IMG/VR virus record: IMGVR_UViG_3300050821_007016
Coordinates: 10,648-74,647 of that record
DNA: 64,000 bases
DNA from: a virus
Strand: one strand, 5' to 3'
Part shown: positions 18,872 through 47,166 of the stretch, piece after piece
Numbering within the stretch: the stretch's first letter is position 1
Layout: each line of letters opens with the position of its first letter
Made by a program: the position numbers and the translations under genes
The notes under the pieces: generated by a model
The model's database searches: none
The model's input: the letters and a program-made list of their open reading frames with translations, nothing else
Told to the model about the DNA's origin: nothing

Positions 18872-19987
18872 TCAGACGCCGAGCATGCCGCTGACGGCGA
18901 AGGGCATCCGAAGGATCGTTCCCCACACGCCGCTGGTCATCTTCTGCTTCCAGCTGGAGGGCTCGGGGATGAGCTTGTGCGAGCGGAGCTTCTCGTTGAA
19001 GGCCGGGTAGGCGACCTTCTGGTTGTCGACCTTGTCCACGATGATCTGGAACAGGTTGCCGACGGCCGAGTAGCCCTGGTTGTTCGTGGTCGTCTTGGCG
19101 CCGTACTGCGGGGCCGGGACGATCTTCATGTTCGGGAAGCCCTCTTTCAAAAGTCCCGCCACCGTCACGCCGAAGGAGTTCGCGAACTTCATCGCCAGCT
19201 GCGACTGCGGCGACAGCGCCAGCGTCATCGGGTCGTCCATGCCGACGGCGCCGTTGGTCTGGTTGATGATCTGCTCCACCACGGCGAGGATGTCGTTGTA
19301 GACCTCGTTGGCGGTAGCTGCCGGCGAGCCGGAGTTGAACCAGGTGGTGCCGCCCCAAGCCTTCACCGCCGGCGACAGGTAGGCCGACAGGAACGGGTTG
19401 TTGAGCAGGCCGTAGTTCTGCAGGTTCACGATGCCGAACGCGTAGGCGAGGTTGCCGAAGCGGTTGAGCAGGCCTGAGGCCGTGCCCGTCAGCTCGCTGA
19501 CGTAGTTGATCCGCATCAGTCCGGCCCGCTCCGTCTCCCGCTCGCCGTAGGCGATGAAGGTCTGGAAGAGGTACGACTGGAACTGCGGGTAGTTGAAGTT
19601 GATGCCGGTGCGGCCGTTGTTCGAGAAGTCGTCGTAGCTGGTGACCTCGCCGTCCTCTTCGATGACCGGGAAGATGCGGGTCTCTTCGAGCCAGTCGCCG
19701 GCCTTCTTCTCGCCGCCGAGGATTTTCGCGATCTGCAGCGGCGCGAACACGACGCGGATCACGTCGGGGTCGATCGCCGTCGTCAGCATCATCGGCAGCG
19801 CCGCGTTCGGGTCGGTCGAGAGGTTGCCCGCGGCGTCCATCGCCAGCCCGACTAGGGACCGGTCCGAGTTCTTCCACTCGTCGGGCACGAGCATCCTGAC
19901 GCCGGGGAGAACCAGCCCGTTGGCCTCGTAGACCGGCCTAAGCTCATTCCACGCTGCGATCGCTGCATTCCGGTCCATCGAGGTCAC
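18872..19987 (-). CDS. Major capsid protein (DUF2184 family)
   Basis: LAMDAA...IDPDVIRVVFAP...KKAGDW...YGERE...YGLLNNP...QKMTSGVWG. Confidence 0.9.
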   Translation of the reverse strand: MTSMDRNAAIAAWNELRPVYEANGLVLPGVRMLVPDEWKNSDRSLVGLAMDAAGNLSTDPNAALPMMLTTAIDPDVIRVVFAPLQIAKILGGEKKAGDWLEETRIFPVIEEDGEVTSYDDFSNNGRTGINFNYPQFQSYLFQTFIAYGERETERAGLMRINYVSELTGTASGLLNRFGNLAYAFGIVNLQNYGLLNNPFLSAYLSPAVKAWGGTTWFNSGSPAATANEVYNDILAVVEQIINQTNGAVGMDDPMTLALSPQSQLAMKFANSFGVTVAGLLKEGFPNMKIVPAPQYGAKTTTNNQGYSAVGNLFQIIVDKVDNQKVAYPAFNEKLRSHKLIPEPSSWKQKMTSGVWGTILRMPFAVSGMLGV

Positions 19988-21006: not shown

Positions 21007-23190
21007 TCACAGGGTCGAGATGTTCTCCAGGCCGGGGGCCAGCTTGAGCGCCTTGTCCACCGCGTCCATCGCGATCGTCTGCGAGGAGTGATGCTCGGGC
21101 GCCCGCGCGCCGGCCTTCGGCAGCGTCTTGAGGATCGGCAGCAGCGCGTCAGCGTGGAGCGTCTTGGCGCCGTCCACGCTACGCATGACCAAGGCGTGGC
21201 GGTAGACGTCGGCCGCGCTGTCGAACGCCATCTTGGAGTCGATCTCGCCGACCCACGGCGCGACCTCCGCGATCGCCACCCTGACGCCGCGCTCGTTGTC
21301 CTTGAGTGCCTTCAGCTGCTTCTGGAACTCAGCGGCCTGCACCTGCAGCGCCGCGTCCATCGCCGGCTTGCTCACCATGTCCTTGTCCTTCTCGTCTTTG
21401 TCCGGGAACTCGTCGCCGCCAGCCGGGCTGGCCGAGAGGTTGCTCGACGGTCCGCCCGCGGCGATGTTCTGCCATTCGGGGGGCATCATGTCGCAGACCT
21501 TCTGGATGTCGTCCTCGCCCATGCCCTTCTCGCGCAGGAAGGCTTTCATCGGCTCGGCGTCGAAACCCTTCTTCTCGCCGGACTCGGCGCCTGGCGGGAA
21601 ATCCTTCTTCTGGGGCTCTGGCTTGTCGATCGGGCCGACCTTCGCGGCCTCCTCGACCTCCTCCGGCTTGCCGCCGAACGGCTCGTCAGAAGCTTCCATG
21701 CCGCTGAAGGCGTCGACGGCCTTAGCGAGGTCCTCCATCGAGGCGTCGAGCGCTATGCCCTTGCGGAGCTTGCCCTCGGCCGCCTTGCGGATGCCGGCCA
21801 GCAGGTCCTTCTTGCTGGCGTTGAAATTCTTGGTGGTGAGCGACTTGAACAGATCGACCGGCAGCGTGATCTTCTGGTCCATCGCGATTTGCGGCGCGAT
21901 CTTCGCGGCCACGTGGTTGAGGACAACCGCTGCAAACCTGGTCGGCTTAGCCATCTCGCTCTCCTTGAGTGCCTCGTCGCCGACGACCACGTCGGGTCCG
22001 GCTCGTCCGTCTTCCACTAACGCTACGTGATTGAAAACGATGTCCCGCATCACTCCGTCGTAGTCGGTACCACGGAAATTTCCCGGTGTCATGTCCGGCT
22101 TGTAGTGGTAGCCGGCCGACAGCTCCTGCTGCCTTCCGGTCTCTATCGCGTCGATCGCCTCCTGCGAGTTAACGAACAGCGAGTTGTCGAGGTACTCGCC
22201 ATCGAACTCCGCGTCGGTCCCGAGCGAGCCAACGGTCTCATACGGGTGATGGTCGTCCGCGCTTACGGGCACGTGTTTGATAAGCAATTGCACGCCATTC
22301 AGCGTCGGCGCGGCCTTCGCAAGCTCCTCCGGGTCCCGTAGCAAAAAGTAGACGCGGTCGGGCTCCAGCCCGATCTCTTCCCAGCCCGGAATCTCCTCGC
22401 CGCGGTAGGGGCAAACGTTGGCCTTCGAGACGTGGGTTCGCTTGACGATCAGCCGGCCGTCGCGGGTCTTCTCGCGGACCGAGTCGCGGTCCATCGCGAT
22501 CTCGAATCGCGAATCAGCGCGCGGGCCGAACGACCTGTCCATCGCCATCGCGGAGTCCTGCGCCTGACTGACTCGATCTGAGTCACTCTTCTTCGGCGTC
22601 TGCGAGTTGCAGCACGCCTTCGGCTCGATCGGCCGGTCCTCGTGGAAGTAATCGCCGAGCTTCTCGTTCAGCTCCTCGTACCAGCCGCACTTCTCGTTGC
22701 CGCCGTAGAAGCAGTTCTCGCAGCGCACCGCGCGCTCGACGTAGCCGACCTCCTCCTTGGACGCGGAACCCCCCGCGCCCTCGGCCAGCTTGCCGGCGTG
22801 CTCCTTGACGACGCCTGGGTCCGGCGTGGCGTCCGGCGTGGGCCAGGACGCGAACTCGCCGCACGACCCGCAGTCTTCGCCGCCATCAACGGCCTCCTGC
22901 GATCCCAGCACCACGCAGAGGTCGCAGCCCTTCTTGTGCTTGCCCTCCGCCGGCATCGCGTCCTTCGGAACCAGCATCCGGCAGGCGTAGCACTGCGCGT
23001 GCTGGTCGCGCATCTCCGGCGCCGCGTTCTTCGGCGGCTCCATATACTCGAAGATCGAGCGGTCGTTCTTGGGGGCCGATTCGTCGGCGGCGACGAACTC
23101 CTCGCCCACCTTCTTCGGAATGCCGAGCGTCGAGTGGCCGTGCGCTGCGGCCTCCATCGCGTTATGCTGCTTCTCGCTCACTGACGGCAT
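21007..23190 (-). CDS. DUF2213 prohead protease/scaffold with N-terminal Cys-rich extension
   Basis: SKANVCPYRGEEIP...HVPV...ELSAGY...NHVALVEDGRAGPDVVVGD. Confidence 0.9.
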   Translation of the reverse strand: MPSVSEKQHNAMEAAAHGHSTLGIPKKVGEEFVAADESAPKNDRSIFEYMEPPKNAAPEMRDQHAQCYACRMLVPKDAMPAEGKHKKGCDLCVVLGSQEAVDGGEDCGSCGEFASWPTPDATPDPGVVKEHAGKLAEGAGGSASKEEVGYVERAVRCENCFYGGNEKCGWYEELNEKLGDYFHEDRPIEPKACCNSQTPKKSDSDRVSQAQDSAMAMDRSFGPRADSRFEIAMDRDSVREKTRDGRLIVKRTHVSKANVCPYRGEEIPGWEEIGLEPDRVYFLLRDPEELAKAAPTLNGVQLLIKHVPVSADDHHPYETVGSLGTDAEFDGEYLDNSLFVNSQEAIDAIETGRQQELSAGYHYKPDMTPGNFRGTDYDGVMRDIVFNHVALVEDGRAGPDVVVGDEALKESEMAKPTRFAAVVLNHVAAKIAPQIAMDQKITLPVDLFKSLTTKNFNASKKDLLAGIRKAAEGKLRKGIALDASMEDLAKAVDAFSGMEASDEPFGGKPEEVEEAAKVGPIDKPEPQKKDFPPGAESGEKKGFDAEPMKAFLREKGMGEDDIQKVCDMMPPEWQNIAAGGPSSNLSASPAGGDEFPDKDEKDKDMVSKPAMDAALQVQAAEFQKQLKALKDNERGVRVAIAEVAPWVGEIDSKMAFDSAADVYRHALVMRSVDGAKTLHADALLPILKTLPKAGARAPEHHSSQTIAMDAVDKALKLAPGLENISTL

Positions 23191-23203
23191 GGCGTCGCGT
23201 TTA

Positions 23204-23425
23204 TCACGCGACCCGATTCCGCACAAACCGGATGCGCTGCTCTCCGGGCAGCTTCGCCCTCGGGTTGCCCTCGTCGTCCAGGATCGACTGCACCAGCATG
23301 TCCTTGATGATGACCTTCATCAGCCTCTGGACCAGGCGCCGCCGGGAAATCTGACGGATGCGGCAGCAGGCATCGATGTAGTTGGCCTGTTCCTCGCTCA
23401 GAGTCATTTTGACCCTGATGTCCAC
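23204..23425 (-). CDS. Small putative ribbon-helix-helix protein
   Basis: VKMTLSEEQANYIDACCRIRQISRRRLVQRL; GGAGG before GTG; start uncertain. Confidence 0.45.
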   Translation of the reverse strand: MDIRVKMTLSEEQANYIDACCRIRQISRRRLVQRLMKVIIKDMLVQSILDDEGNPRAKLPGEQRIRFVRNRVA

Positions 23426-24259: not shown

Positions 24260-25048
24260 TCAGCTGAAGCCTTTGATGACCGACCGGCTCACGCAGCGGC
24301 AGTTGATCAGCGTCCCCGGCCAGATGTAGTCGTTCACCTTGGGATCGGGATCGAACCAGCCCTTCGCCGGATCGTACTCCTTGCCGGAGTTGGCGAGGTG
24401 GGTCGGGCGCGGCTCCTTGCCGCCGTGGGAGTGAAGCCAGACCGCCTTCAGGCCCAGTTCGACCTGGCGCACGCGGACGAACACTGAAGTCGCCTTGTTG
24501 TTTTGATCTCGGGCGATCAGCGCGGCGCGCGCCCGCGTCAGGTCATAGCGCGCCTCCAGCATCTTCGTCAGCGAGCCGAGGTCGCGGCCGGCGGTGACCG
24601 AGCGCATCACCAGGCCCTCGACGTCCGAATGATACTTCTGCGCGATCGAGCGGATCAGCCCGACGTTCTCCGCGATCGTCGCCTCGTAGGCGTCGCGCAT
24701 GGTGGGCGTCATGTTGAAGGCGATCGTCATCCCGGAATCGCCGAGGATGCGCTTGAGCGACGCCGCGGACCGACGCTCGGCCGACTTGGCGAACCAGCGC
24801 GCCAGCTTCGGCGCCGTCTCGTTGATCCGCTTCTCCCAGCGCTTGCCGAGGTAGGAAAGCTCGCGCTGCAGCTCCTTGGCCGGCGTCGCGTCCATCGCCA
24901 GCCGCGGCGGATTGTCCCGGTACTGCGCCTTGATCCAGTGCGCGTAGGACCGCGCCATAGCCTCGACCAGAGCCGCGATCCGGCGGCGGTAGTCGGCCTG
25001 GATGCCGGCGTTGGGGTGCACGGGCCGGAGCGGCTTACTCTTCTTCAA
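24260..25048 (-). CDS. Head morphogenesis protein (Mu gpF / SPP1 gp7 family)
   Basis: RAALIARDQNNKA...WLHS...PRPTH...PGTLINCRC; start approximate. Confidence 0.88.
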   Translation of the reverse strand: MKKSKPLRPVHPNAGIQADYRRRIAALVEAMARSYAHWIKAQYRDNPPRLAMDATPAKELQRELSYLGKRWEKRINETAPKLARWFAKSAERRSAASLKRILGDSGMTIAFNMTPTMRDAYEATIAENVGLIRSIAQKYHSDVEGLVMRSVTAGRDLGSLTKMLEARYDLTRARAALIARDQNNKATSVFVRVRQVELGLKAVWLHSHGGKEPRPTHLANSGKEYDPAKGWFDPDPKVNDYIWPGTLINCRCVSRSVIKGFS

Positions 25049-25241
25049 GGTCCTCGCCCTCGGCTGCGGCCTCGTAGTCGGCTCGCAGATCATCGTCCGA
25101 ATCGCCGCCGAGCACCGATTCAAACGCCTCTTCCTCGGCGTCGCGATCGGCGATCGACCGCGAGGCCTCCTCCGGCGTCATGATCGAGATCGAGCCATCA
25201 GCCATCTCACCCGGTGCCCACTTTGCCTTGTCAGAGTTCAT
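25035..25241 (-). CDS. Small acidic hypothetical protein
   Basis: 68 aa, GGAGG RBS, overlaps its neighbours. Confidence 0.5.
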   Translation of the reverse strand: MNSDKAKWAPGEMADGSISIMTPEEASRSIADRDAEEEAFESVLGGDSDDDLRADYEAAAEGEDLEEE

Positions 25242-28200
25242 GCCATTCCTCCAGGTGAATCACGGTGGTGGCGCCGGTCGACAGCGCCTGGGACAGCTTC
25301 TCTACCTTGCCAACCTTGAAATAGGTGCGTCCGGCGAAGACTACCTCATCCTCGCCGCCGTGGACCGACAGCTTCTTGATGTCGGCCGCTCGTGAACTTC
25401 CCTTGGTGGGCGTCACGACGAACCGCACGTTGCCGCTAAAGACGCCGTTCGGCTTCTTCTTGCTTGTGCTCATTAGAGCCTTTTCCTGAATGATATGGCC
25501 CTCGGCGTAGTAGGCGATCTGCTCCTGAGACAAGTTCGTGTTGCGGATGAGGGGTTCGCCCTGGTAGCTCGGCATCGACTTGAGTGCCTTGTTGACCATC
25601 GCGACGTAGACGTGCTGGGCCGGGGTCCATTTGTCGGAGCGCAGCGCGGCGTTGACCTGGCCGAAACCCCCGTCGCTATAGTTCTTTATCAGCGCGCATT
25701 CGAAGCCGGAGATCGGGTATCCGTATGCCTCGGCCTCCTTTGCATACTTCTGGAAGTCCTCGACCAGGTCCGCCTTGCCCATCATCTTCGCCAGAGCGTC
25801 GAAGCCCTCGGCCTGGGTCTCGGATATGCCGAGTTCCTTGATGTATTTCTTGTTCTTTTCGGCCTTTTCCTTGGCGAGCGCGACGGCCTTGTCCGCGAGT
25901 GCCTTTGCGTGGGCGGCTGCCTGGGCTTTCTCGGCCTCTAGCTTTGCTGCAGCTGCCTTTTGCTGTTCGCTCTGCAGCGGCTTCATTGCCTCGACGAGGT
26001 CTTTGAAGTCGTTGACCTTCTCTTGCAGCTTATCTGGCGTGGTTTTATTGAGCCACTTAGCGTTGAACTCGTTGACTAATCCTTGCGCCTTCAGGCTGTC
26101 CTGGGGCGCCCCCGGGACATATTGAATTTTCAGCGGCACATTCTTTTTCGCCTTTTCCAGCTCTCCCGCGGTCGCTGGACCGTGCTTCGTGGCAGGTGGC
26201 GGCGCTGGCGCCTTTGGTGGCTCCTGCTTGATCTCGACCTTCTGAGGCTCGGGTTTCGATTTGGCAGCCTCGGCTTTGGCCGCGGCCAGTTCCTCCGGCG
26301 TCATCTTCACGCCCTTGTATTTGGTGACGCCGCCCTCCTTGGTTTTCTCCAACTTCATGCCGAGGGTTTTCGCCATCTGAGGCATCGAGATAGTCGGCCA
26401 GTTCAGCGCCGCCAGCATCTCCTGCGTCGTAGTCCCCTTCGTGAGCAGGTGCGCGGCGTGCTCCTTTTTCGATTTGAATGCGGGCGTCGATCCCCCGCCG
26501 CCGCCTCCAGAGGTGAACTTGCCATCTGGCGCCCGGGGATGCTTGGACTCCTCGAAGGAGGCCTCGTCAGTGGCGCCAAAAGGGCCGGCGGCATCGTTAG
26601 CCCCGCCTCCCTCTCCGCCTTGCCCGTCGGCCTCTTTCTCGAACTCGGTGGCGCTCCCTCCCGCGCCCGGCCCGAGCAGGCCCTCCTCGGCCGGCGGCTC
26701 CGGCACGTCGTCGGGGTCGAGCCCGGTATAGGGCAGGTCCGGGTCCTCGATGATCGCCTTCCTGATCTCGCCCGGCGCCAGCGCGCCCATGTCGACGTAC
26801 TTCTGGTTGCGGTCGGCGTCGTCCTTCTCCTTCTGGCCCTTCTCCGCCAGCGTCATCTCGCGCAGCGGCTTCCATGTGAAGGTGATCTCGGGGTCGATCT
26901 CGCCCCACAGCGACAGCTGCTCGAAGTTGATGATCCGCCGCAGGTTCGGGTCCAGCACCCGCTTCTGGTAGGCCGCGATCGTGTCGTCGTAGGTCTTGAT
27001 CTCGCCCTCGCTCGACGCGTTCAGCCCCGAGGGCTGGATGCCGGTGAACTTCACGAGCGGGATGCGGTGCACGCTCGCCATGTGCTCCTGCGCCTGCGCC
27101 TGCAGCTCGTGCAGCCCGCTCAGCGGCGCGGACACGTTGGCGAAGTCCTCGGTCGCTTCGTTGATCACGTAGGTGTTGGCGTTGTCGCGCATCATGTTGA
27201 ACATCGCGACGCGGGACAGCATCTGCGCCGCGTTGTTGTTGTTCAACAGCGTCGACAGGTCGGTCTTGAGCACCATCACCGAGAACGAGTGGATCAGCTG
27301 CGCCACCGAGGAGCGGGTCTGCAGCCAGATGTCGACGTATGGCTTGGCCATCTCCGACAGCGATATGCCGCCGAAAGCGTAGGCCGGCTTGAGCATGTCC
27401 GGCACCGGGTGCGCGATGAACGTCTGCAGCCGCGAGCCGTGGAACTCCTTGCCCATCACGAACCAGACCTGCGGGTTGTACCAGTCCGCCCGCGTCGGGT
27501 CCCACGCGTTGTAGGCCAGCGGGTAGGTCCAGACCGGCTCGATCGTTTGCAGCCGCTTGAACGAGCCGGGCGTGACCTTGCTCCGGCTGACTGCGTCATC
27601 GGCGACGCCGGTGCCGATCGCCGTCTTCATCTCGTCCGCCGTCGGCTCGATGTTGTTGGTCCAGATGTCCAGCAGCAGGTGCGACCGGCCGAAGAAGCCG
27701 TTGTTGCGCGACTGCGCGTGGAAGCGGTGCGCGACCTCCAGCCGGAGCTGGTCGTCCTGCAGCGCCTTGACCTTGTCGGTCTTGCCGGCCTCCTTGACGC
27801 GCTTCCTCTTCTCGTCCGGATCGGCCATGCGCTCGGCGAAGCCCTCCGGGTCTTTCTCGGCCTCCTCCTGGTTGGCCTTCTCGTCGCCGACCACATCAAA
27901 ATCAATCCATTCTCTCGTCGCATCGTCGGCGATCGTCTCGGCCATCACCCGATACTCGGGCCGCTGCGCCAGGGCGCTTAGGAAGCTGTAGCCAAGGAAG
28001 CCATTGCCGTCGCCGGGGAAGTTGTCGAAGCTGCCGCCGGCCGCCCACGCGTCGCTGCAGAAGCTGAGGTTGCCCATCAGGGCGCTGTCCATCGCCATCG
28101 ACATCGTGGCCGGGACCGCAGCCTTCGGGAAATCCGGCAGCCGGAACGGCGAGTTGTCCCTGGTGCGCTCGACGCGCTGCGAGTAGCGCTCGAAGACCTC

Positions 28201-28686
28201 GGTGATCTGCGGCAGCATCTCCATCCAGCGGTTGGGATCGACCTTATCTTTTGGCTCGGCTGGTACGGTTTCCGACATGATAGACGTAGGAGCCGGAGAT
28301 GCTGGCGTTATCGGTGCTTCTTCTGATTTATGGTGGCGAGCGCCGCCCCATTGGGGGCCATGATGAACCTTCTTGATCTTAAGATGCTCTCTGAACATCT
28401 TTGCTTCGATCGCTTCGATCACCTCTAGCGGCGTTTTGCTTACCCATTCCCCTACCGTTTTGGCGTCCGTTTTCAGGTCGGAGATTATCTCCCATTCGAA
28501 CCGAGTAGCCGTCTCCTGGTCGGGCATCTCATAGGCGGCGAAAATCTTCAGCTTATGGCCGTTGCCGGTCTGCAGCTGCCGAAGCCTCTTGTCGATGTCG
28601 CGGTAGGTGAGGCCGATTTTGGTAACGCGGTGACCGCGAGAACGCGCGATGACGTAGAGCTTGGGAACCTCGACCGTTTCCGTCAT
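25231..28686 (-). CDS. Portal protein (DUF1073) fused to N-terminal T5orf172/GIY-YIG-like domain and C-terminal wHTH + ADP-ribosyltransferase
   Basis: Portal motifs LAQRPEYR, LKPAYAFGG, IPLVKFTGIQPSGLNASSEGEI; N-terminal LYVI...KIG...RLRQLQTGN...GEW; C-terminal IKNYS...VNAALR...LIR...MSTS...EDEVVF. Confidence 0.9.
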   Translation of the reverse strand: MTETVEVPKLYVIARSRGHRVTKIGLTYRDIDKRLRQLQTGNGHKLKIFAAYEMPDQETATRFEWEIISDLKTDAKTVGEWVSKTPLEVIEAIEAKMFREHLKIKKVHHGPQWGGARHHKSEEAPITPASPAPTSIMSETVPAEPKDKVDPNRWMEMLPQITEVFERYSQRVERTRDNSPFRLPDFPKAAVPATMSMAMDSALMGNLSFCSDAWAAGGSFDNFPGDGNGFLGYSFLSALAQRPEYRVMAETIADDATREWIDFDVVGDEKANQEEAEKDPEGFAERMADPDEKRKRVKEAGKTDKVKALQDDQLRLEVAHRFHAQSRNNGFFGRSHLLLDIWTNNIEPTADEMKTAIGTGVADDAVSRSKVTPGSFKRLQTIEPVWTYPLAYNAWDPTRADWYNPQVWFVMGKEFHGSRLQTFIAHPVPDMLKPAYAFGGISLSEMAKPYVDIWLQTRSSVAQLIHSFSVMVLKTDLSTLLNNNNAAQMLSRVAMFNMMRDNANTYVINEATEDFANVSAPLSGLHELQAQAQEHMASVHRIPLVKFTGIQPSGLNASSEGEIKTYDDTIAAYQKRVLDPNLRRIINFEQLSLWGEIDPEITFTWKPLREMTLAEKGQKEKDDADRNQKYVDMGALAPGEIRKAIIEDPDLPYTGLDPDDVPEPPAEEGLLGPGAGGSATEFEKEADGQGGEGGGANDAAGPFGATDEASFEESKHPRAPDGKFTSGGGGGGSTPAFKSKKEHAAHLLTKGTTTQEMLAALNWPTISMPQMAKTLGMKLEKTKEGGVTKYKGVKMTPEELAAAKAEAAKSKPEPQKVEIKQEPPKAPAPPPATKHGPATAGELEKAKKNVPLKIQYVPGAPQDSLKAQGLVNEFNAKWLNKTTPDKLQEKVNDFKDLVEAMKPLQSEQQKAAAAKLEAEKAQAAAHAKALADKAVALAKEKAEKNKKYIKELGISETQAEGFDALAKMMGKADLVEDFQKYAKEAEAYGYPISGFECALIKNYSDGGFGQVNAALRSDKWTPAQHVYVAMVNKALKSMPSYQGEPLIRNTNLSQEQIAYYAEGHIIQEKALMSTSKKKPNGVFSGNVRFVVTPTKGSSRAADIKKLSVHGGEDEVVFAGRTYFKVGKVEKLSQALSTGATTVIHLEEWHEL

Positions 28687-31438: not shown

Positions 31439-31458
31439 TTAGGAACTTTTTTCCCCAA
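31439..31458 (-). promoter_or_regulatory. Operator/promoter motif TTGGGGAAAAAAGTTCCTAA
   Basis: Exact 20-nt reverse complement of 47144..47163. Confidence 0.65.
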
Positions 31459-31568: not shown

Positions 31569-33239
31569 TTAAATCCGGCCGGCCCGCGCGATCTGCTGCA
31601 GCATCGATCCGGTCACCTCGATCGGCTCCGGCGGCATCGGCGCGTAGCGGATCACGACCGCGTCCGCCTGGTTCGGGCTCTTGGTGCCCTCCGGCTTCTT
31701 TTCGATCACGATCTTGCCGAGGTCGTTCTGCTTGTAGGTCGCCTGCGACAGCTCCGCCACCAGCTTCATCAGGTTCGGGTTGTTGCGGCTGAGCGAGACC
31801 ATGTCGTCGACCTTGCACGGCGTGCCCTCGGCGCCGCCGGTCTCCATGTGCCGCACGGCGCGGTAGGTCTTCTGAAATCGCTTCCGCAGCGCCCACCACG
31901 ATTGTGCCTTGTGGTTGGCGAAGTAATCCTCGTTAGTGCGGCCGGTGTCTCCCGAGAGGCCGATCGTGCCCTCGACGATGCCCTCCGGGTCCACCACACC
32001 CACCGAGCCTCGGTAGCCTATGGCCTTGACCATCCGAGCCTTGGCCCGCTGGCGCCGCTCGTTGATCACCCTGGAGTCGCCGCCCACGCCAGCCCCGAGG
32101 CCGTCGGCGTCGTAGCGGAACTCGGTCAGCTCGTGGTCATCGCAGAGGTCGAACACGTACTCCGTCGACGAGAAGATGTCCGAGCCCTTGCCGCTCCACT
32201 CCTCGGTCTCCAGCACCTCGATGCCCTTGCAGATGCAGACCGCGTTCTTGTCATCGCCCTCGTCGGCCACGTCGAACGCGATCGCCTTGCGCCCAGCCGG
32301 CGCGATGCCGAGCTTCTCGCAGGCGCCGATCGCCGCGCGCACCCAGATGCCGGGGATCACCACGCCCTTGACAGAGGCCGCGTAGTCGCGGTCGATCTCC
32401 TGCGCCACCACGACCGGGTCTAGCTCCGCGCACTGCTTGTCGTACCACGCCTGGTCCTTCCGAGGGTCGTCGCGCCAGTCGAAGATGAACACGTCGATCT
32501 TGCCGCCCCAGCGCTTCTGGGCGAACGGGTTCGCCATGCCGCGCACCGACGACATGTCGATCCGGCAGTTGGTGGTCTGCGACAGCGAGGCCTCGACCAG
32601 CTCGGGCCGCGGCAGATGGGCCGCCTCGTCCACGAAGTAGATGCTGGTGCGGTCGCCGCGGCCGATGTCGTCGCCGCCTTCTCCCGCGATCAGCGAGCCG
32701 GTGTTCGGGAACGTGATCCGCATGAACGGGGCGTCGCGCCACGCCACCCAGTCGCCCTTGAACTCAATGGGCAGGTTTTCCATGAAGGTCCGGCCCTTGG
32801 GGAAGATAGGCTTGAGCGTACCGATCTTGTCGACGTACTCGCCCTTGCGCGAACCGAACCCGATCGACAGCCCCTCGTAGAGCAGGCAGAGCGTGCATGA
32901 CAGCGCCATCGACAGCCAGGTCGCGCCCACGTCGCGGGACTTCTCGATCAGGCCGGGGCGGCGGTTGCGCCACTTGTCGATCACGTACTCGACGAACTCG
33001 CGCTGCTTCGGGAACATGATGAAAGGGATCGCCGCCGGCAGGCCGATCTCGACGTTGCGCGGTTCGTGCATCATGCCCCAGTCGCAGATGAAGTCGGCCG
33101 GCGCGGTGCGGTAGTGGTCCATGTAGGCCGGCACGACCTCGGGGTGCTCGCGCAGCCGCTTCAGGTTTTCCATGCGGGTGTTCATCGCCAGCGCGTAGTC
33201 GGGGTTCTTCCAGTCCCACTTGATCGGCTTAAGCAACAT
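31569..33239 (-). CDS. terL: Terminase large subunit
   Basis: EKSRDVGATW (Walker A-like), YFVDEAAH (Walker B), AFDVADEGDD and KSPNQADA nuclease motifs. Confidence 0.93.
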   Translation of the reverse strand: MLLKPIKWDWKNPDYALAMNTRMENLKRLREHPEVVPAYMDHYRTAPADFICDWGMMHEPRNVEIGLPAAIPFIMFPKQREFVEYVIDKWRNRRPGLIEKSRDVGATWLSMALSCTLCLLYEGLSIGFGSRKGEYVDKIGTLKPIFPKGRTFMENLPIEFKGDWVAWRDAPFMRITFPNTGSLIAGEGGDDIGRGDRTSIYFVDEAAHLPRPELVEASLSQTTNCRIDMSSVRGMANPFAQKRWGGKIDVFIFDWRDDPRKDQAWYDKQCAELDPVVVAQEIDRDYAASVKGVVIPGIWVRAAIGACEKLGIAPAGRKAIAFDVADEGDDKNAVCICKGIEVLETEEWSGKGSDIFSSTEYVFDLCDDHELTEFRYDADGLGAGVGGDSRVINERRQRAKARMVKAIGYRGSVGVVDPEGIVEGTIGLSGDTGRTNEDYFANHKAQSWWALRKRFQKTYRAVRHMETGGAEGTPCKVDDMVSLSRNNPNLMKLVAELSQATYKQNDLGKIVIEKKPEGTKSPNQADAVVIRYAPMPPEPIEVTGSMLQQIARAGRI

Positions 33240-33411
33240 TCCAGGGACCAAAATCGTTGGCGATTGGCCAGAACGCCCCGTCGGATACCGGCCACCGAAA
33301 GCAGGCGATGGTCACGGTCGAGCCCGCGGTTATGATCCAGCGCAGCCTGAACTCGGCGATCGCCTGGTTCGACGCGTCCTTCCATGCCGGGTAGAAGAAC
33401 AGGTCGATCAT
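33229..33411 (-). CDS. Hypothetical protein
   Basis: Coupled small ORF (MIDLFFYPAW). Confidence 0.45.
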   Translation of the reverse strand: MIDLFFYPAWKDASNQAIAEFRLRWIITAGSTVTIACFRWPVSDGAFWPIANDFGPWNVA

Positions 33412-37964: not shown

Positions 37965-38087
37965 CCCACCCCACAATTCAGTGGACATCTAGCCGAAACC
38001 ACGCATTTATTGTCCTGCGATTTGGCGACTTTTTTCCCCAGATCGGCCCGGCGGCAATTAAGCCTTCCGGCCCAGCAGGAGATACCC

Positions 38088-39299
38088 ATGCTAGACGTCA
38101 CCAAGAGCAGCGAAACCAGCACGGCCTACCGAGTCGACCCGACCCGCGGCGGCCACAACGGCGAGGTCTCGATGCAATGGATGGCCCGCCCCGCGGACCA
38201 GCGATTCCTCTCCCTCGATGACCTCCACGACTACAAGCGCCAGTTCTGGATGGGCGCTTTCCAGACCAGAGCCAAGACCGACGCCTTCGAACTGATCGCC
38301 CCGGAGATCAAGGAGCAGGCGGACCTGCACCGCCTCACGGTCGGAGTCACCGTCGACCTCGGCGACACCAAGGACGCCCGCGAGATCGCGCCGACGCACT
38401 GGGCCTTCGGCCAGCTCGCCGGCCTCGCGAAGTCCCCGGCCTCCTTCCTCCGCGAATTGCCTAGCCCGCTCGTCAGCGACGTGCTGACCTGGAGGCTTCG
38501 CCATGCGCGCGAGATCGAGGAGGTGAAGTTATATGGCGGCTCCACCGAGCTATACGCGGCGACCGGCCCCGACTACGGCCGCATCCCCGACTTCGAGGTG
38601 GTGGAGGCGGTGCGGCAGGTCGCGGGCAGCGGCCGCGGCGAGATGCGCTGGAAGATTCCCGGCGTGCTCGACTGGAACACCAACATGTACAACCCCGACG
38701 CGCCGGTCACCAAGGACTCGACCAGCCTCTACGCTTCGGATCGGGACGTCTTCATGTTCCTCGTCGACGATCGCAACCCGATCGAGGTCGGCAAGCTGGC
38801 GTCCGGCGAGCCCGATTTGATGTTCAGGGGTTTCTACATCCAGAACAGCGAGATGGGATCGCGCAGCCTCAAATTGGCGTGCTTCTATCTCCGCGCGGTC
38901 TGCATGAACCGCAACCTCTGGGGCGTCGAGAACTTCGACGAGATCAAGATCAACCACACGCGGCTCGCCCCGGATCGCTGGCTGCAGCAGGCGGTCCCCG
39001 CGCTCAACTCCTACGCCAGCGGGTCTTCGGACAAGCTGATCGAGGGCGTCAAGCTGGCGAAGGCGACGAAGGTCGCCGACGACCATGAGAAGGCCGTCGA
39101 GTTCCTCACTGCCCGCAAGTTCTCCCTATCGAAGGCCAAGTCGATCTTGGAGCAGGGCGAGAAGGAGGAAGGCCACCCGCCGCGCTCGGCTTGGGATTTT
39201 GCTCAAGCCATTACTGCCAATGCCCGCAACGCCCTGAACACCGACGACCGGCTGGAGCAGGAGAAGCAGGCCCAGGCGATCCTCGACAAGGTCGCCTAG
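38088..39299 (+). CDS. DUF932-domain protein
   Basis: QWMARPADQRFLSL...PTHWAFGQL...TGPDYGRI...LYASDRDVF...NSEMG...CMNRNLWG; AGGAG RBS. Confidence 0.85.
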   Translation: MLDVTKSSETSTAYRVDPTRGGHNGEVSMQWMARPADQRFLSLDDLHDYKRQFWMGAFQTRAKTDAFELIAPEIKEQADLHRLTVGVTVDLGDTKDAREIAPTHWAFGQLAGLAKSPASFLRELPSPLVSDVLTWRLRHAREIEEVKLYGGSTELYAATGPDYGRIPDFEVVEAVRQVAGSGRGEMRWKIPGVLDWNTNMYNPDAPVTKDSTSLYASDRDVFMFLVDDRNPIEVGKLASGEPDLMFRGFYIQNSEMGSRSLKLACFYLRAVCMNRNLWGVENFDEIKINHTRLAPDRWLQQAVPALNSYASGSSDKLIEGVKLAKATKVADDHEKAVEFLTARKFSLSKAKSILEQGEKEEGHPPRSAWDFAQAITANARNALNTDDRLEQEKQAQAILDKVA

Positions 39300-39316
39300 T
39301 TTCAACCCCCAAACTC

Positions 39317-39346
39317 GGCGCCCGCTTCGGCGGGCGCTAATTTTTC
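39317..39346 (+). terminator. Rho-independent terminator
   Basis: gcgcccgc-TTCG-gcgggcgc followed by a T-rich tail. Confidence 0.7.
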
Positions 39347-39507
39347 AAAAGGAGGTTTAGCAGTGACGCTGAGGATCGAATGCGCGGCCGAGGGCTTCTT
39401 CTCAATCAAGCTGCGCGAGGTCGAGATCGAGACCGCCCCCCACACGGGGCGGACCTACTACATCCACGGCGGCCGGATCATCGCCGTCGCAACCAGGGAA
39501 GAGAACG

Positions 39508-40260
39508 ATGACGAACCAGAAACTAGATCAAGCGTTGGCCTTCCTGCAGGGCCGAAAGCTGGACGCGATGCTACTCGGGCCGGCCGATCGGATCACGGAG
39601 AACCAGAGCGTAAGCGATCAGGCGGTCGAATTGTTGGAGCAGATGCTTCCGGGCCAGAAACTCATGGTGGCGGACGGATTGCCGCCCACCGCGATCATCG
39701 CCCCGGAGGAGAGGAAGAACGCGTGGAAAGGCAAGCGGCCTCGACCCACGCACTCGATGCACTTCGAACAATCTTCGAAGAAGGAGGAGGACCCGGCGAC
39801 CAGAAAGCTCCGCAAGGAGCTGGCCGACGCGGAGGCGAAGAAGAAGGCCGAGCGCTTAGCGCGGCTGAATGAACTCAAACAGGCGGCCAAGGCTGCCGCA
39901 ACCCCGAAGGAGAGTACCATGAGTGCTGCTACCCACCACACCACCACGAAGGCCGATCAGGTGAAGGCCTTGCGCGTCAAGCGGGCGACGACCAAGGCCG
40001 CACCCAAGAAGGCCGCACCGGCGAAGCCGGCTAAGGCCAAGCAGACCGCAAAGGCGATCCCAGGCATCCGTCCTGGTTCCAAGTTGGAAATTGTGGCCGG
40101 CCTGTTGACCCGCAAGGAGGGTTGCACCACGGCCGACGTCCTCAAGGCCACCGACTGGCCGGCGGTCTCGATGCCGCAAATGGCGAAGTCGGCCGGGCTG
40201 AAGCTCCGCAAGGAGAAGGCCAAAGGGGAACCCACCCGGTATTATGGGACGGCGGCTTAG
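39508..40260 (+). CDS. Lys/Ala-rich protein with C-terminal DUF3489-like winged helix (possible internal start at 39919)
   Basis: GSKLEIVAGLLTRKEGCTTADVLKATDW...GLKLRKEK...RYY. Confidence 0.7.
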   Translation: MTNQKLDQALAFLQGRKLDAMLLGPADRITENQSVSDQAVELLEQMLPGQKLMVADGLPPTAIIAPEERKNAWKGKRPRPTHSMHFEQSSKKEEDPATRKLRKELADAEAKKKAERLARLNELKQAAKAAATPKESTMSAATHHTTTKADQVKALRVKRATTKAAPKKAAPAKPAKAKQTAKAIPGIRPGSKLEIVAGLLTRKEGCTTADVLKATDWPAVSMPQMAKSAGLKLRKEKAKGEPTRYYGTAA

Positions 40261-40285
40261 GAGGCTCGCTGGTGCGTTTAGAATG

Positions 40286-40312
40286 GCCGGGGCTAGGTGG
40301 CCCCGGCTTTTT
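40286..40312 (+). terminator. Rho-independent terminator
   Basis: gccggggc/gccccggc + TTTTT at a convergent junction. Confidence 0.7.
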
Positions 40313-46812: not shown

Positions 46813-47088
46813 CTAGCCTTCGTCGAATCCCTTATCCACTTTTTTCCCCAACTTCGGCACCGGGGCCGTCCTCGGCCAGGGGGTGCCGCGGGGCCACTTC
46901 GAGCGCATCCGGTTCACCATCAGGAAGTACGTCTTGATCGTCGTCGACATCGACCCGGCCAGATACTTCTCAAGAAACTGGTGATTCCCATGGATTTCCT
47001 TGCTGACGGTTGCCAGAGCCCATCCCCGCGCGTTGGCGTAGGTCTGGGCCAGGACCATCAAGTTTTGGCGCATTATCTCCTCGGACAT
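46813..47088 (-). CDS. Cro-like HTH regulator
   Basis: First gene of the leftward operon; LAQTYA...LATVSKEIHGNHQFL...WPRGTPWP. Confidence 0.6.
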   Translation of the reverse strand: MSEEIMRQNLMVLAQTYANARGWALATVSKEIHGNHQFLEKYLAGSMSTTIKTYFLMVNRMRSKWPRGTPWPRTAPVPKLGKKVDKGFDEG

Positions 47089-47137: not shown

Positions 47138-47166
47138 TGGACATTGGGGAAAAAAGTTCCTAAAGT
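47138..47166 (+). promoter_or_regulatory. Sigma70-like promoter TGGACA-N17-TAAAGT with embedded operator motif
   Basis: Divergent intergenic region; the spacer is the repeated TTGGGGAAAAAAGTTCC. Confidence 0.6.

What the first reader, a model, noticed from the sequence alone, without database searches (positions are those of the whole stretch)
26310..26475. Same DUF3489-like winged helix in the portal payload and in a free-standing gene
Seen: portal segment SKKEHAAHLLTKGTTTQEMLAALNWPTISMPQMAKTLGMKLEKTK matches 39508..40260 SKLEIVAGLLTRKEGCTTADVLKATDWPAVSMPQMAKSAGLKLRKEK, with SMPQMAK identical. Inference: a DNA-binding or targeting domain is delivered twice, once with the injected ART and once from the + strand island. 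The free copy may compete with or regulate the ART, or both may coat the phage DNA.
Basis: partly seen in the sequence, partly recalled or inferred. Interest (0 to 1): 0.7.

Follow-up and report, generated by a model that had tools for sequence, protein, structure and literature searches.

The report
Shared winged-helix module, portal and free
A complete 75-kb soil phage carries the same small winged-helix (DUF3489-type) domain twice, once inside its giant portal–toxin fusion protein and once at the end of a very basic free protein; the duplication is real and old, most likely a shared DNA-anchoring module, and nothing shows that the free copy controls the toxin.

Summary
Portal ORF 25231..28686(-) residues 739-796 and the free gene 39508..40260(+) residues 191-248 align at 52% identity over 58 aa (E 9e-12). 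Both are modelled as winged helices, and SMPQMAK is helix 3.

The window is part of a complete 74.6-kb phage with direct terminal repeats. The portal ORF is a polyvalent fusion: MUG113/GIY-YIG-like, portal, HPR..DGKF linker, wH, long helix, R-S-E ADP-ribosyltransferase.

The wH is an optional cassette. It is present in 34 of 72 related payloads, always N-terminal to the cargo, and once with a non-ART cargo. All 35 portal copies form one clade nested within the free family, so this is an old capture and not a recent duplication.

The free family has at least 720 clusters. It is stereotyped: variable N-terminus, strongly basic K/A/P tail (median +11 over 60 aa), wH at the extreme C-terminus.

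The two copies usually travel together in this lineage, but each also occurs alone. Helix 3 does not covary within genomes.

My reading is a shared polyanion (DNA) anchoring module, used once in the virion and once after gene expression. An ART-regulator pairing is unlikely. DNA binding and injection are untested. Interest is moderate to low.

The parts
25231..28686 (-). Polyvalent portal fusion ORF (1151 aa, P0002)
   Evidence: Stop-free ORF. Phage_portal_3 E 6e-68, ADPrib_exo_Tox 24.3 bits against a cut-off of 23.4, MUG113 23.5 bits against 22.3. phrog_146 portal E 2e-88.
28405..28620 (-). N-terminal MUG113 / GIY-YIG-like module (residues 23-94)
   Evidence: Pfam PF13455 E 8e-5 and a weak GIY-YIG match. 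Modelled with low confidence.
26806..27984 (-). Portal core (residues 235-627)
   Evidence: PF06381 match at residues 235-627. 981 cultured phages match only this part.
26488..26562 (-). Acidic/Gly-rich junction with the motif FEESKHPRAPDGKFTSGGGGGG (residues ~709-733)
   Evidence: The motif recurs 1-3 times at module borders in 64 of 72 related fusions. It is modelled as disordered, residues 662-735 with pLDDT below 50. A role as a processing site is inference.
26305..26478 (-). Portal-embedded DUF3489-like winged helix (residues 737-794)
   Evidence: 52% identical to the free copy. AF2 topology H740-750, strand, H754-761, H768-774, hairpin 777-794, pLDDT 72-79. Present in about half of related payloads: 36 of 72 by direct search, 34 at E 1e-3.
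25579..26169 (-). Helical spacer with a very long helix (residues 840-1036; helix 884-951)
   Evidence: AF2 secondary structure. It is conserved together with the ART as the 'mid' segment in relatives.
25234..25569 (-). C-terminal ADP-ribosyltransferase core (residues ~1040-1151), R1048 / S1073 (STS) / E1112-x-E1114
   Evidence: PF03496 and PF01129 matches. R1048, S1073 and E1114 are invariant in 24 fusions. pLDDT 80-90.
38088..39299 (+). DUF932 gene directly upstream of the free wH gene (403 aa from ATG 38088)
   Evidence: PF06067 24.3 bits against a cut-off of 23. phrog_1362 E 1e-39. The same DUF932-then-DUF3489 order is seen in L085/G011.
39317..39338 (+). Terminator-like hairpin plus T-run between the DUF932 gene and the free gene
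   Evidence: Consensus scan and sequence.
39508..40260 (+). Free-standing DUF3489 protein (250 aa, P0003)
   Evidence: 96 homologues, most of them flagged PF11994. The start is supported by the 84%-identical P0004.
39628..39897 (+). Conserved helical N-terminal module of the free protein (residues ~41-130; DGLPxxAII..PEER..AWKG..EDPATKxLRKEL..KKKAERLARLxELK)
   Evidence: Alignment A3. pLDDT 88-97, helices 48-55, 66-73 and 96-130. No family match.
39883..40065 (+). Basic K/A/P-rich tail (residues 126-186, net charge +12)
   Evidence: Low pLDDT.
40066..40257 (+). C-terminal winged helix of the free protein (residues 187-250); SMPQMAK = helix 3 (221-228); basic hairpin wing 231-249
   Evidence: AF2 pLDDT ~95. 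The VIA top 50 are all winged-helix domains, Z up to 6.2.
40285..40308 (+). Terminator-like hairpin plus T-run after the free gene

Best explanation
Both segments are copies of one phage-borne subfamily of the DUF3489 winged helix, marked by W-P-[ST]-[VI]-S-[MV]-P-x-x-A in helix 3. The module's normal setting is the extreme C-terminus of small, very basic phage proteins built as variable N-terminal module, K/A/P-rich tail, then wH. In one lineage of ~72-kb myoviruses it was captured once into the C-terminal polyvalent extension of the portal. There it sits as an independently folded bead between two flexible linkers, upstream of a cargo that is usually an R-S-E ADP-ribosyltransferase. I read the module as a generic anchoring module for a polyanion, most likely double-stranded DNA, with the basic wing and the helix N-caps on the backbone. 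On that reading the portal copy (12 per virion, inside the head at the portal vertex) would tether the cargo to the packaged or entering genome, or to the host nucleoid. The free protein, expressed from its own terminator-bounded unit on the opposite strand, would coat or bridge DNA later, in the manner of a linker histone. The two copies would then be parallel uses of one module at different times of infection, not a toxin/regulator pair. Shown here: homology, fold, modularity, single origin of the portal copies, charge pattern, and partial but not obligate co-occurrence. Inferred: DNA binding, cleavage at the HPR..DGKF junction, packaging and injection.
For: Homology: 52% identity over 58 aa, E 9e-12. 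Fold: the free copy has pLDDT ~95 with H1-S1-H2-H3-hairpin topology, and the portal copy has the same topology at pLDDT 72-79, flanked by linkers below pLDDT 50. All top-50 structural neighbours are winged-helix domains, mostly DNA-binding ones: DriD Z 6.2, MecI 5.7, MarR/MexR 5.6, NolR, Fur, ArsR. Family: 1129 cluster representatives at E<=1e-3 and 720 at E<=1e-10, nearly all 90-300 aa with the domain at the C-terminal end. In 202 free proteins the median is 0 residues after the domain, the 60 aa before it carry a median net charge of +11 (58% K/R/A/P), the whole-protein median is +21, and the domain median is +6 in both free and portal copies. Modularity: 34 of 72 related payloads carry the wH, always 139-489 aa N-terminal to the ART. 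38 have the ART without it (35 of them with a portal hit). P0168 has the wH with a different cargo. Single origin: 35 portal copies form one group (SH-aLRT 100) nested among 104 free copies. The free copy of this phage scores higher against other phages' portal copies (49 bits) than against its own (37 bits, rank 19). Co-occurrence: both copies, in the same arrangement (opposite strands, 10-14 kb apart), in this phage and in the two complete genomes G025 and G037. The 35%-complete fragment G021 also holds both copies on opposite strands, about 11 kb apart. Literature: portal/MuF fusions to ART and NUDIX are interpreted as head-packaged, injected polyvalent proteins that occasionally carry dsDNA-binding wHTH domains (PMC5512222; PMC9503650).
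Against: No binding data exist for any DUF3489 protein: only one paper in the searched library mentions the family, and only as a remote-homology case. Helix 3 (SMPQ[MQ]AK) has no Arg and only one Lys, which is unusual for a base-reading recognition helix. Structural Z-scores of 5-6 show only the generic fold, and protein-binding winged helices (ScpB, ESCRT-II) are in the same list. In the free proteins the basic tail alone could account for DNA affinity, which would leave the wH free to bind something else. The portal linkers are acidic/Gly-rich (net -7 upstream), not basic. Cleavage and ejection of a 420-aa folded payload from a portal subunit have not been shown for this family.
Confidence: 0.55

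Rival explanations
1. The wH is a protein-protein adaptor, not a DNA binder. It docks onto one host or phage protein. The portal copy would aim the ART at that target or its neighbourhood. The free proteins would bridge that protein to DNA through their basic tails.
For: Helix 3 is poor in basic residues and is the best-conserved surface element. Protein-binding winged helices (ScpB, ESCRT-II) lie among the structural neighbours. The variable N-terminal modules attached to a constant wH fit an adaptor logic equally well.
Against: The domain itself carries net +5/+6 with a Lys/Arg-rich wing in both contexts. Nearly all close structural neighbours are DNA-binding domains. No candidate partner is conserved next to the gene: neighbours vary, and only a convergent DNA methyltransferase recurs.
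Confidence: 0.22
2. One reading: the free protein is a regulator, competitor or antidote of the portal-borne ART and acts through the shared domain.
For: Among genomes at least 90% complete whose portal carries the wH, 3 of 4 also have the free gene (this phage, G025, G037). Only 1 of 10 complete relatives without the portal wH has it. Two further metagenome contigs probably hold both, inferred from equal contig lengths.
Against: 38 of 72 ART payloads lack the wH, and the wH also accompanies a non-ART cargo. The free gene occurs in complete phages with a plain 595-aa portal (G006) and in G028. G001 has wH plus ART but no free copy. The family has at least 720 clusters, far more than the portal fusions. 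Helix 3 does not covary between copies in the same genome, and the two copies are not each other's closest relatives. The enrichment can be explained by shared ancestry of a small clade.
Confidence: 0.08
3. The wH is a head-targeting or homotypic docking module. Free basic proteins would be recruited to the portal vertex by wH-wH contact and packaged with the DNA as internal, charge-neutralising proteins, then co-injected.
For: Extreme basicity resembles internal or core proteins. The free and portal copies co-occur in the lineage in a conserved arrangement.
Against: Most free copies occur in phages without a portal wH. The gene lies outside the late structural operon, on the opposite strand, with its own terminators. 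No dimer evidence was obtainable with these tools.
Confidence: 0.08
4. The similarity is chance or low-complexity resemblance.
For: None beyond the short length (58 aa).
Against: E 9e-12 with compositional adjustment. The same fold is modelled independently in both contexts. There are hundreds of homologues sharing 15 invariant positions.
Confidence: 0.01

Closest known systems
Pfam DUF3489 (PF11994), an uncharacterised winged-helix-like family
   Same: The free protein reaches the family threshold, and most of its homologues are flagged PF11994. The conserved Trp and the H-S-H-H-hairpin fold are present, and ESM Atlas neighbours are DUF3489 clusters, many of them viral.
   Different: This subfamily has helix 3 as WP[ST][VI]SMPQxA rather than the more canonical, more basic helix seen in L085/L086-type members. 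The portal-embedded copies fall below the Pfam threshold at 10-20 bits. No function is known for any member.
Polyvalent head-packaged proteins: portal/MuF fusions to ART, NUDIX and other effectors (Iyer et al. 2017, PMC5512222; Iyer et al. 2022, PMC9503650)
   Same: One ORF combines portal and effector domains. Relatives add kinase-like and NUDIX modules. Cassettes are shuffled between repeated linkers. Those papers mention occasional dsDNA-binding wHTH domains.
   Different: A DUF3489-type wH as a recurrent cassette just upstream of the ART, and a free paralogue in the same genome, are not mentioned in the passages I read. Packaging and injection are inferred there as here.
Linker histone H1 / bacterial H1-like K/A/P-tailed nucleoid proteins (my own knowledge, not tested)
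   Same: A winged helix combined with a long Lys/Ala/Pro-rich tail, and a very high net positive charge.
   Different: The tail precedes the wH instead of following it. No sequence or preferential structural match to the H1/H5 globular domain was seen. This is a 'works like' analogy only.
T4 Alt and C3/VIP2-type ADP-ribosyltransferases packaged in phage heads (my own knowledge plus PMC9503650)
   Same: An R-S-E ART encoded with head genes and presumably delivered with the DNA.
   Different: Alt is a separate protein, packaged through its own targeting signal according to my own knowledge. Here the ART is covalently part of the portal ORF and is preceded by a wH module.

Membership tests
DUF3489 (PF11994) | Score at or above Pfam's gathering threshold (29.5 bits) | tested here: met
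   Free copy: 29.3 bits on the protein and 30.4 bits, over the cut-off, in the six-frame search. Most of its 96 homologues are flagged PF11994. This is a marginal pass.
DUF3489 (PF11994) | The same threshold for the portal-embedded copy | tested here: not met
   10.5-12.2 bits. Related portal copies score 17.7-20 bits. Membership is by transitive homology only: 52% identity to the free copy, and the portal copies nest inside the free clade.
DUF3489 (PF11994) | Conserved Trp (from my memory of the Pfam description) and a small helix-turn-helix plus hairpin fold | tested here: met
   The Trp (W36 of alignment A2, i.e. W217 of P0003) is invariant in A2, and W763 of the portal is invariant in A1. 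Topology from AF2.
Winged-helix DNA-binding domains | H1-S1-H2-H3-S2-wing-S3 topology | tested here: met
   The VIA top 50 are all winged helices, Z 4.7-6.2 over 56-78 aligned residues.
Winged-helix DNA-binding domains | Binds nucleic acid | not testable with these tools
   Only indirect support: net charge +5/+6, a basic wing, and basic tails in 202 relatives.
Polyvalent head-delivered proteins (portal/MuF-effector fusions) | A virion structural domain and two or more effector or accessory domains in one polypeptide, encoded in the head module | tested here: met
   the portal ORF lies between terminase (31569-33251) and head morphogenesis/protease genes. There are 72 related fusions.
Polyvalent head-delivered proteins (portal/MuF-effector fusions) | Payload is packaged, processed and injected | not testable with these tools
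   A repeated HPR..DGKF junction and disordered linkers are compatible with processing but show nothing.
R-S-E ADP-ribosyltransferases (C3/VIP2/Alt type) | Pfam match plus the catalytic Arg, Ser-Thr-Ser and Glu-x-Glu | tested here: met
   PF03496 24.3 bits against a cut-off of 23.4. R1048, S1073 (MSTSK) and E1112-D-E1114 are invariant or nearly invariant.
Toxin/antidote or effector/regulator gene pair | Obligate co-occurrence of the two partners | tested here: not met
   Each occurs without the other in complete genomes: G001 has the portal copy only, G006 and G028 the free copy only. 38 ART payloads lack the wH.
Linker histone H1-like proteins | Homology of the globular domain to GH1/GH5 | tested here: inconclusive
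   No H1/H5 chain appears among the listed matches and there is no PDB sequence hit. Only the composition of the tail is alike.

The most novel reading that the evidence does not exclude
The WP-x-x-SMPQxA winged helix is a dedicated 'genome tether' of a large group of uncultured soil phages. On the portal payload it would keep injected effectors bound to the leading end of the entering DNA. As the C-terminal anchor of hundreds of different basic proteins it would build a phage-made, linker-histone-like coat that shields or organises phage DNA against host defences. That would be a new class of phage chromatin-like proteins, with the portal copy priming the coat at entry.
Probability: 0.2. Interest if true: 0.7.

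Novelty: new member of a known kind. Interest (0 to 1): 0.4.

Why it matters
If the module is a DNA anchor, it gives a concrete handle on two things. One is how head-delivered effectors of polyvalent portal proteins stay with the incoming genome. The other is the role of a large family (at least 720 clusters at 50% identity), almost entirely metagenomic, of very basic phage proteins that has no assigned function. It also gives the first testable hypothesis for Pfam DUF3489. If it is only a generic adaptor, the finding remains a tidy example of cassette shuffling between free genes and polyvalent virion proteins.

Tried and rejected
1. Intragenomic recent duplication or gene conversion: rejected. 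The own portal copy ranks 19th for the free domain, and the portal copies form a separate clade.
2. Matched recognition helices within genomes: rejected. For example, G025 has PQQAR against NAQAA, and G037 has VPAMAK against MPQAAK.
3. Link to the 13-mer TGGGGAAAAAAGT: the motif is real here, with 4 exact copies against 0.4 expected. One copy lies about 50 nt upstream of the DUF932 start. It is absent from all 159 fetched loci, so there is no comparative support.
4. PDB sequence search with the domain profile: nothing below E 0.1.
5. NCBIfam and PHROGs for the free protein: only a weak phrog_10315 match of unknown function.
6. Cultured phages: no tblastn hit for the free protein, and the portal hits cover the core only.
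7. Species-representative genomes: only 2 hits, both in metagenome-assembled genomes, so no host was assigned.
The metagenome scan gave mostly short contigs.
9. The literature library gave no functional paper on DUF3489, PF11994 or DUF932.
10. The careful tree search did not finish in time. The quick IQ-TREE result, on 63 columns with many unresolved forks, is what I cite.
Full report
**Setting.** The window is bases 10648-74647 of a 74,647-bp IMG/VR virus record with direct terminal repeats, rated 100% complete. GC content is about 64%. The genes around the finding are a head module on the minus strand:
- large terminase, 31569-33251
- the 1151-aa portal ORF, 25231-28686
- a head-morphogenesis protein, 24260-25123
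- a 739-aa protease fusion, 21007-23226
- major head protein, 18872-19987

A short plus-strand island lies at 38088-40260, between this block and a minus-strand block that holds DNA methyltransferases, a RusA gene and a DUF7768 gene.

**Observation.** It lies at residues 738-792 of the portal ORF. The 250-aa product of 39508-40260 ends with the second quoted peptide.
- BLASTP gives 30/58 identities, E 9e-12, with SMPQMAK identical.
- Pfam DUF3489 hits the free protein at the threshold: 29.3 bits on the protein and 30.4 bits in the six-frame search, against a cut-off of 29.5.
- The portal copy scores only 10-12 bits.
- The whole phage holds just these two copies.

**Fold.**
- With a 43-sequence alignment, AlphaFold2 models residues 190-250 of the free protein at pLDDT ~95. 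The topology is H1 (192-201), a short strand, H2 (208-215), H3 (222-228) and a beta-hairpin wing (231-249). SMPQMAK is therefore helix 3, the helix that contacts DNA in canonical winged helices.
- With a 24-sequence alignment, the portal model has the same topology at residues 740-794 (pLDDT 72-79). It sits between two disordered linkers (662-735 and 810-832). It is followed by a helical region with one very long helix (884-951) and by the ART core (1046-1148, pLDDT 80-90).
- Foldseek and the exhaustive VIA search return only winged-helix domains for the free protein's C-terminus: DriD Z 6.2, MecI 5.7, MexR 5.6, NolR, Fur, ArsR, PadR, ScpB.
- These scores establish the generic fold. They do not establish a function.

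**The portal ORF is a polyvalent fusion.** Pfam finds MUG113/GIY-YIG-like (residues 23-94), Phage_portal_3 (235-627) and ADPrib_exo_Tox (1055-1136).
- A search with residues 700-1151 found 72 giant fusions of 650-1950 aa, mostly on contigs of about 70-75 kb. Many also carry NUDIX domains and a kinase-like module seen in the alignment consensus.
- R1048, S1073 and E1114 of the ART are invariant.
- The junction motif [FW]xEx[DK]HPRxxDGKFxSGGGG recurs 1-3 times per protein at module borders, in 64 of 72 proteins.
- Published comparative work interprets portal/MuF fusions to ART, NUDIX and other enzymes as head-packaged, injected 'polyvalent proteins'. It notes rare dsDNA-binding wHTH domains in them (PMC5512222; PMC9503650).
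- No cultured phage in the collection has the extension.

**The wH is an optional cassette in these payloads.** A direct search found the module in 36 of the 72 fusions. At E 1e-3 in a later script the counts were:
- portal + wH + ART: 28
- wH + ART without a portal hit: 5
- portal + ART without wH: 35
- ART only: 3
- portal + wH with a different, non-ART C-terminus (P0168): 1
The wH always precedes the ART, by 139-489 residues. So the ART does not need the wH, and the wH is not ART-specific.

**The free family.**
- The free protein has 96 homologues in the word-indexed search, most flagged PF11994.
- The exhaustive profile search with a 10-sequence domain alignment found 1129 cluster representatives at E<=1e-3 and 720 at E<=1e-10. 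Almost all are 90-300 aa with the domain at the very C-terminus, and only a handful are giant fusions.
- In 202 free proteins the median number of residues after the domain is 0.
- The 60 residues before the domain have median net charge +11 and are 58% K/R/A/P.
- Whole proteins have median net charge +21. The domain itself is +6, the same as the portal copies.
- N-terminal regions vary widely. The subgroup containing this phage's protein shares a confident helical module at residues ~41-130.
- This architecture is the main argument that the family binds a polyanion, most plausibly DNA. By composition and layout it recalls linker histone H1 and bacterial K/A/P-tailed nucleoid proteins. That comparison is my own knowledge and an analogy only.

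**Evolution.** A quick maximum-likelihood tree of 139 domain sequences (63 columns, so many forks are unresolved) puts all 35 portal copies on one side of a branch with SH-aLRT 100. With divergent DUF3489-type copies at the midpoint root, they nest among 104 free copies. The free domain of this phage scores better against other phages' portal copies (P0141, 49 bits) than against its own (37 bits, rank 19). The paralogy is therefore old: one capture of a free-type module into the portal extension, followed by vertical descent. It is not a recent duplication or gene conversion.

**Co-occurrence.**

| Group of genomes (at least 90% complete) | Free copy present | Sources |
|---|---|---|
| Portal carries the wH | 3 of 4: this phage, G025 (73.2 kb), G037 (72.8 kb); not G001 (95 kb, 90% complete) | |
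| Relatives found through portal homology, portal lacks the wH | 1 of 10: G006, which has a plain 595-aa portal | |

- In the complete genomes with both copies, the free gene lies 10-14 kb from the portal copy on the opposite strand. The 35%-complete fragment G021 also has both, on opposite strands about 11 kb apart.
- Two metagenome contigs (75,122 and 31,652 bp) probably hold both copies. This is inferred only from matching contig lengths.
- Records found through the free copy include complete genomes with the free copy only, G028 and G031.
- G005 has an orthologue of the free protein's N-terminal module joined to a divergent DUF3489-type wH, and its portal-ART has no wH.
- So the copies tend to travel together in one lineage, yet each exists without the other. 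The sample is small, and shared ancestry is not controlled for.
- Within genomes that have both, helix 3 does not covary. The identical SMPQMAK in this phage reflects family conservation, not a matched pair.

**Local context of the free gene.**
- Upstream is a DUF932 gene. Its true start is ATG 38088, not the TTG at 38010.
- Then come a terminator-like hairpin (39317-39338), a small ORF with a strong ribosome-binding site (GTG 39363), the free gene, and a second terminator-like hairpin (40285-40308).
- In relatives the free gene is usually convergent with a DNA methyltransferase gene (L087, L089-L095). In L085 it again follows a DUF932 gene.
One copy is about 50 nt upstream of the DUF932 start. 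It occurs in none of the fetched loci of relatives. Its link to the wH is unsupported.

**Interpretation.** The best-supported reading is that the domain is a reusable anchoring module, with DNA as the likeliest ligand. Phages of this group attach it to different partners: variable N-terminal modules in the free proteins, and an ART or another cargo in the portal payload. The portal copy would act in the virion or at entry. The free copy would act after expression.
- The main rival is that the wH binds a protein. It rests on the weakly basic helix 3 and on the fact that the tails alone could bind DNA.
- The regulator or antidote idea is weakened by the independent distribution, the non-ART cargo and the lack of covariation.
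- A homotypic docking or packaging role cannot be excluded, but most free copies occur where no portal wH exists.
- None of these can be settled without binding assays and virion proteomics.

**Novelty and score.** DUF3489 is a catalogued but uncharacterised family. Portal-effector polyvalent proteins are described in the literature. The specific points I did not find in the searched literature are these: a DUF3489-type wH as a recurrent cassette before the ART in portal fusions, its single origin from a very large family of basic C-terminal-wH phage proteins, and the partial co-inheritance with a free paralogue. I rate this a new member of known kinds, of moderate interest (0.4). It is a real and tidy case of module sharing with a testable DNA-anchor hypothesis, but it is not a surprising mechanism.

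**Limits.** The tree is a quick search on 63 columns. All structures are predictions.

Noticed in passing
window 39350-39515 (+): A small ORF starts at GTG 39363, behind a strong AAAGGAGG ribosome-binding site. Its first ~49 aa are homologous to a ~56-aa ORF in L095 that ends at that point (E 3.6e-8). In the window the frame has no stop until 39872 and overlaps the free gene out of frame. The TGA of the ATGA at 39508-39511 would be the expected coupled stop. A 1-nt assembly indel or a real frameshift near 39500 is likely.
   Followed up: partly
window 31445-31457(-), 38028-38040(-), 46838-46850(-), 47145-47157(+): The exact 13-mer TGGGGAAAAAAGT occurs four times, against 0.4 expected even when allowing 2 mismatches. 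All four sites look intergenic or promoter-like. The copies at 31445 and 47145 share a longer block (TTGGGGAAAAAAGTTCCTAA.G.TGGCG). The motif is absent from all 159 fetched loci, which include relatives' loci.
   Followed up: partly
window 26488-26562(-) and related fusions P0100-P0170: The junction motif [FW]xEx[DK]HPRxxDGKFxSGGGG recurs 1-3 times per polyvalent portal at module borders, in 64 of 72 proteins. It is a candidate processing site or recombination joint for cassettes.
   Followed up: partly
P0141, P0127, P0100 and alignment A1 (relatives' portal fusions): Relatives carry a kinase-like module (…H.WL.NWDA.G..GDNQG…) and a NUDIX domain between the portal and the wH. This phage lacks both and instead has an N-terminal MUG113/GIY-YIG-like module in front of the portal core.
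   Followed up: no
window 39628-39720(+); alignment A3: The N-terminal motif of the free family, DGLPxxAII..PEER..AWKG, aligns with DIPDFLRI..PQEQR in relatives (P0025, P0027, P0042). This short acidic-hydrophobic peptide is reminiscent of partner-docking tips such as the FtsZ C-terminal peptide or the SSB tail. That resemblance is from memory only.
   Followed up: no
window 21007-23226(-) and 25231-28686(-): phrog_30637, a 1119-position profile of unknown function, matches the portal (residues 411-728 to profile positions 1-306) and the 739-aa protease fusion (residues 192-452 to profile positions 674-939). In some phages, therefore, portal and prohead protease parts appear to be one protein.
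   Followed up: no
P0168 (981 aa; 31,652-bp contig): A portal fusion in which the wH is followed not by an ART but by about 240 aa of an acidic region with no Pfam family match (…WSLFEFLASNGGLKP…). This is an alternative cargo for the same module.
   Followed up: partly
window 38010-38090(+): The DUF932 gene most likely starts at ATG 38088, which is preceded by GGAGA, rather than at the TTG 38010 given by the mechanical ORF list.
   Followed up: partly
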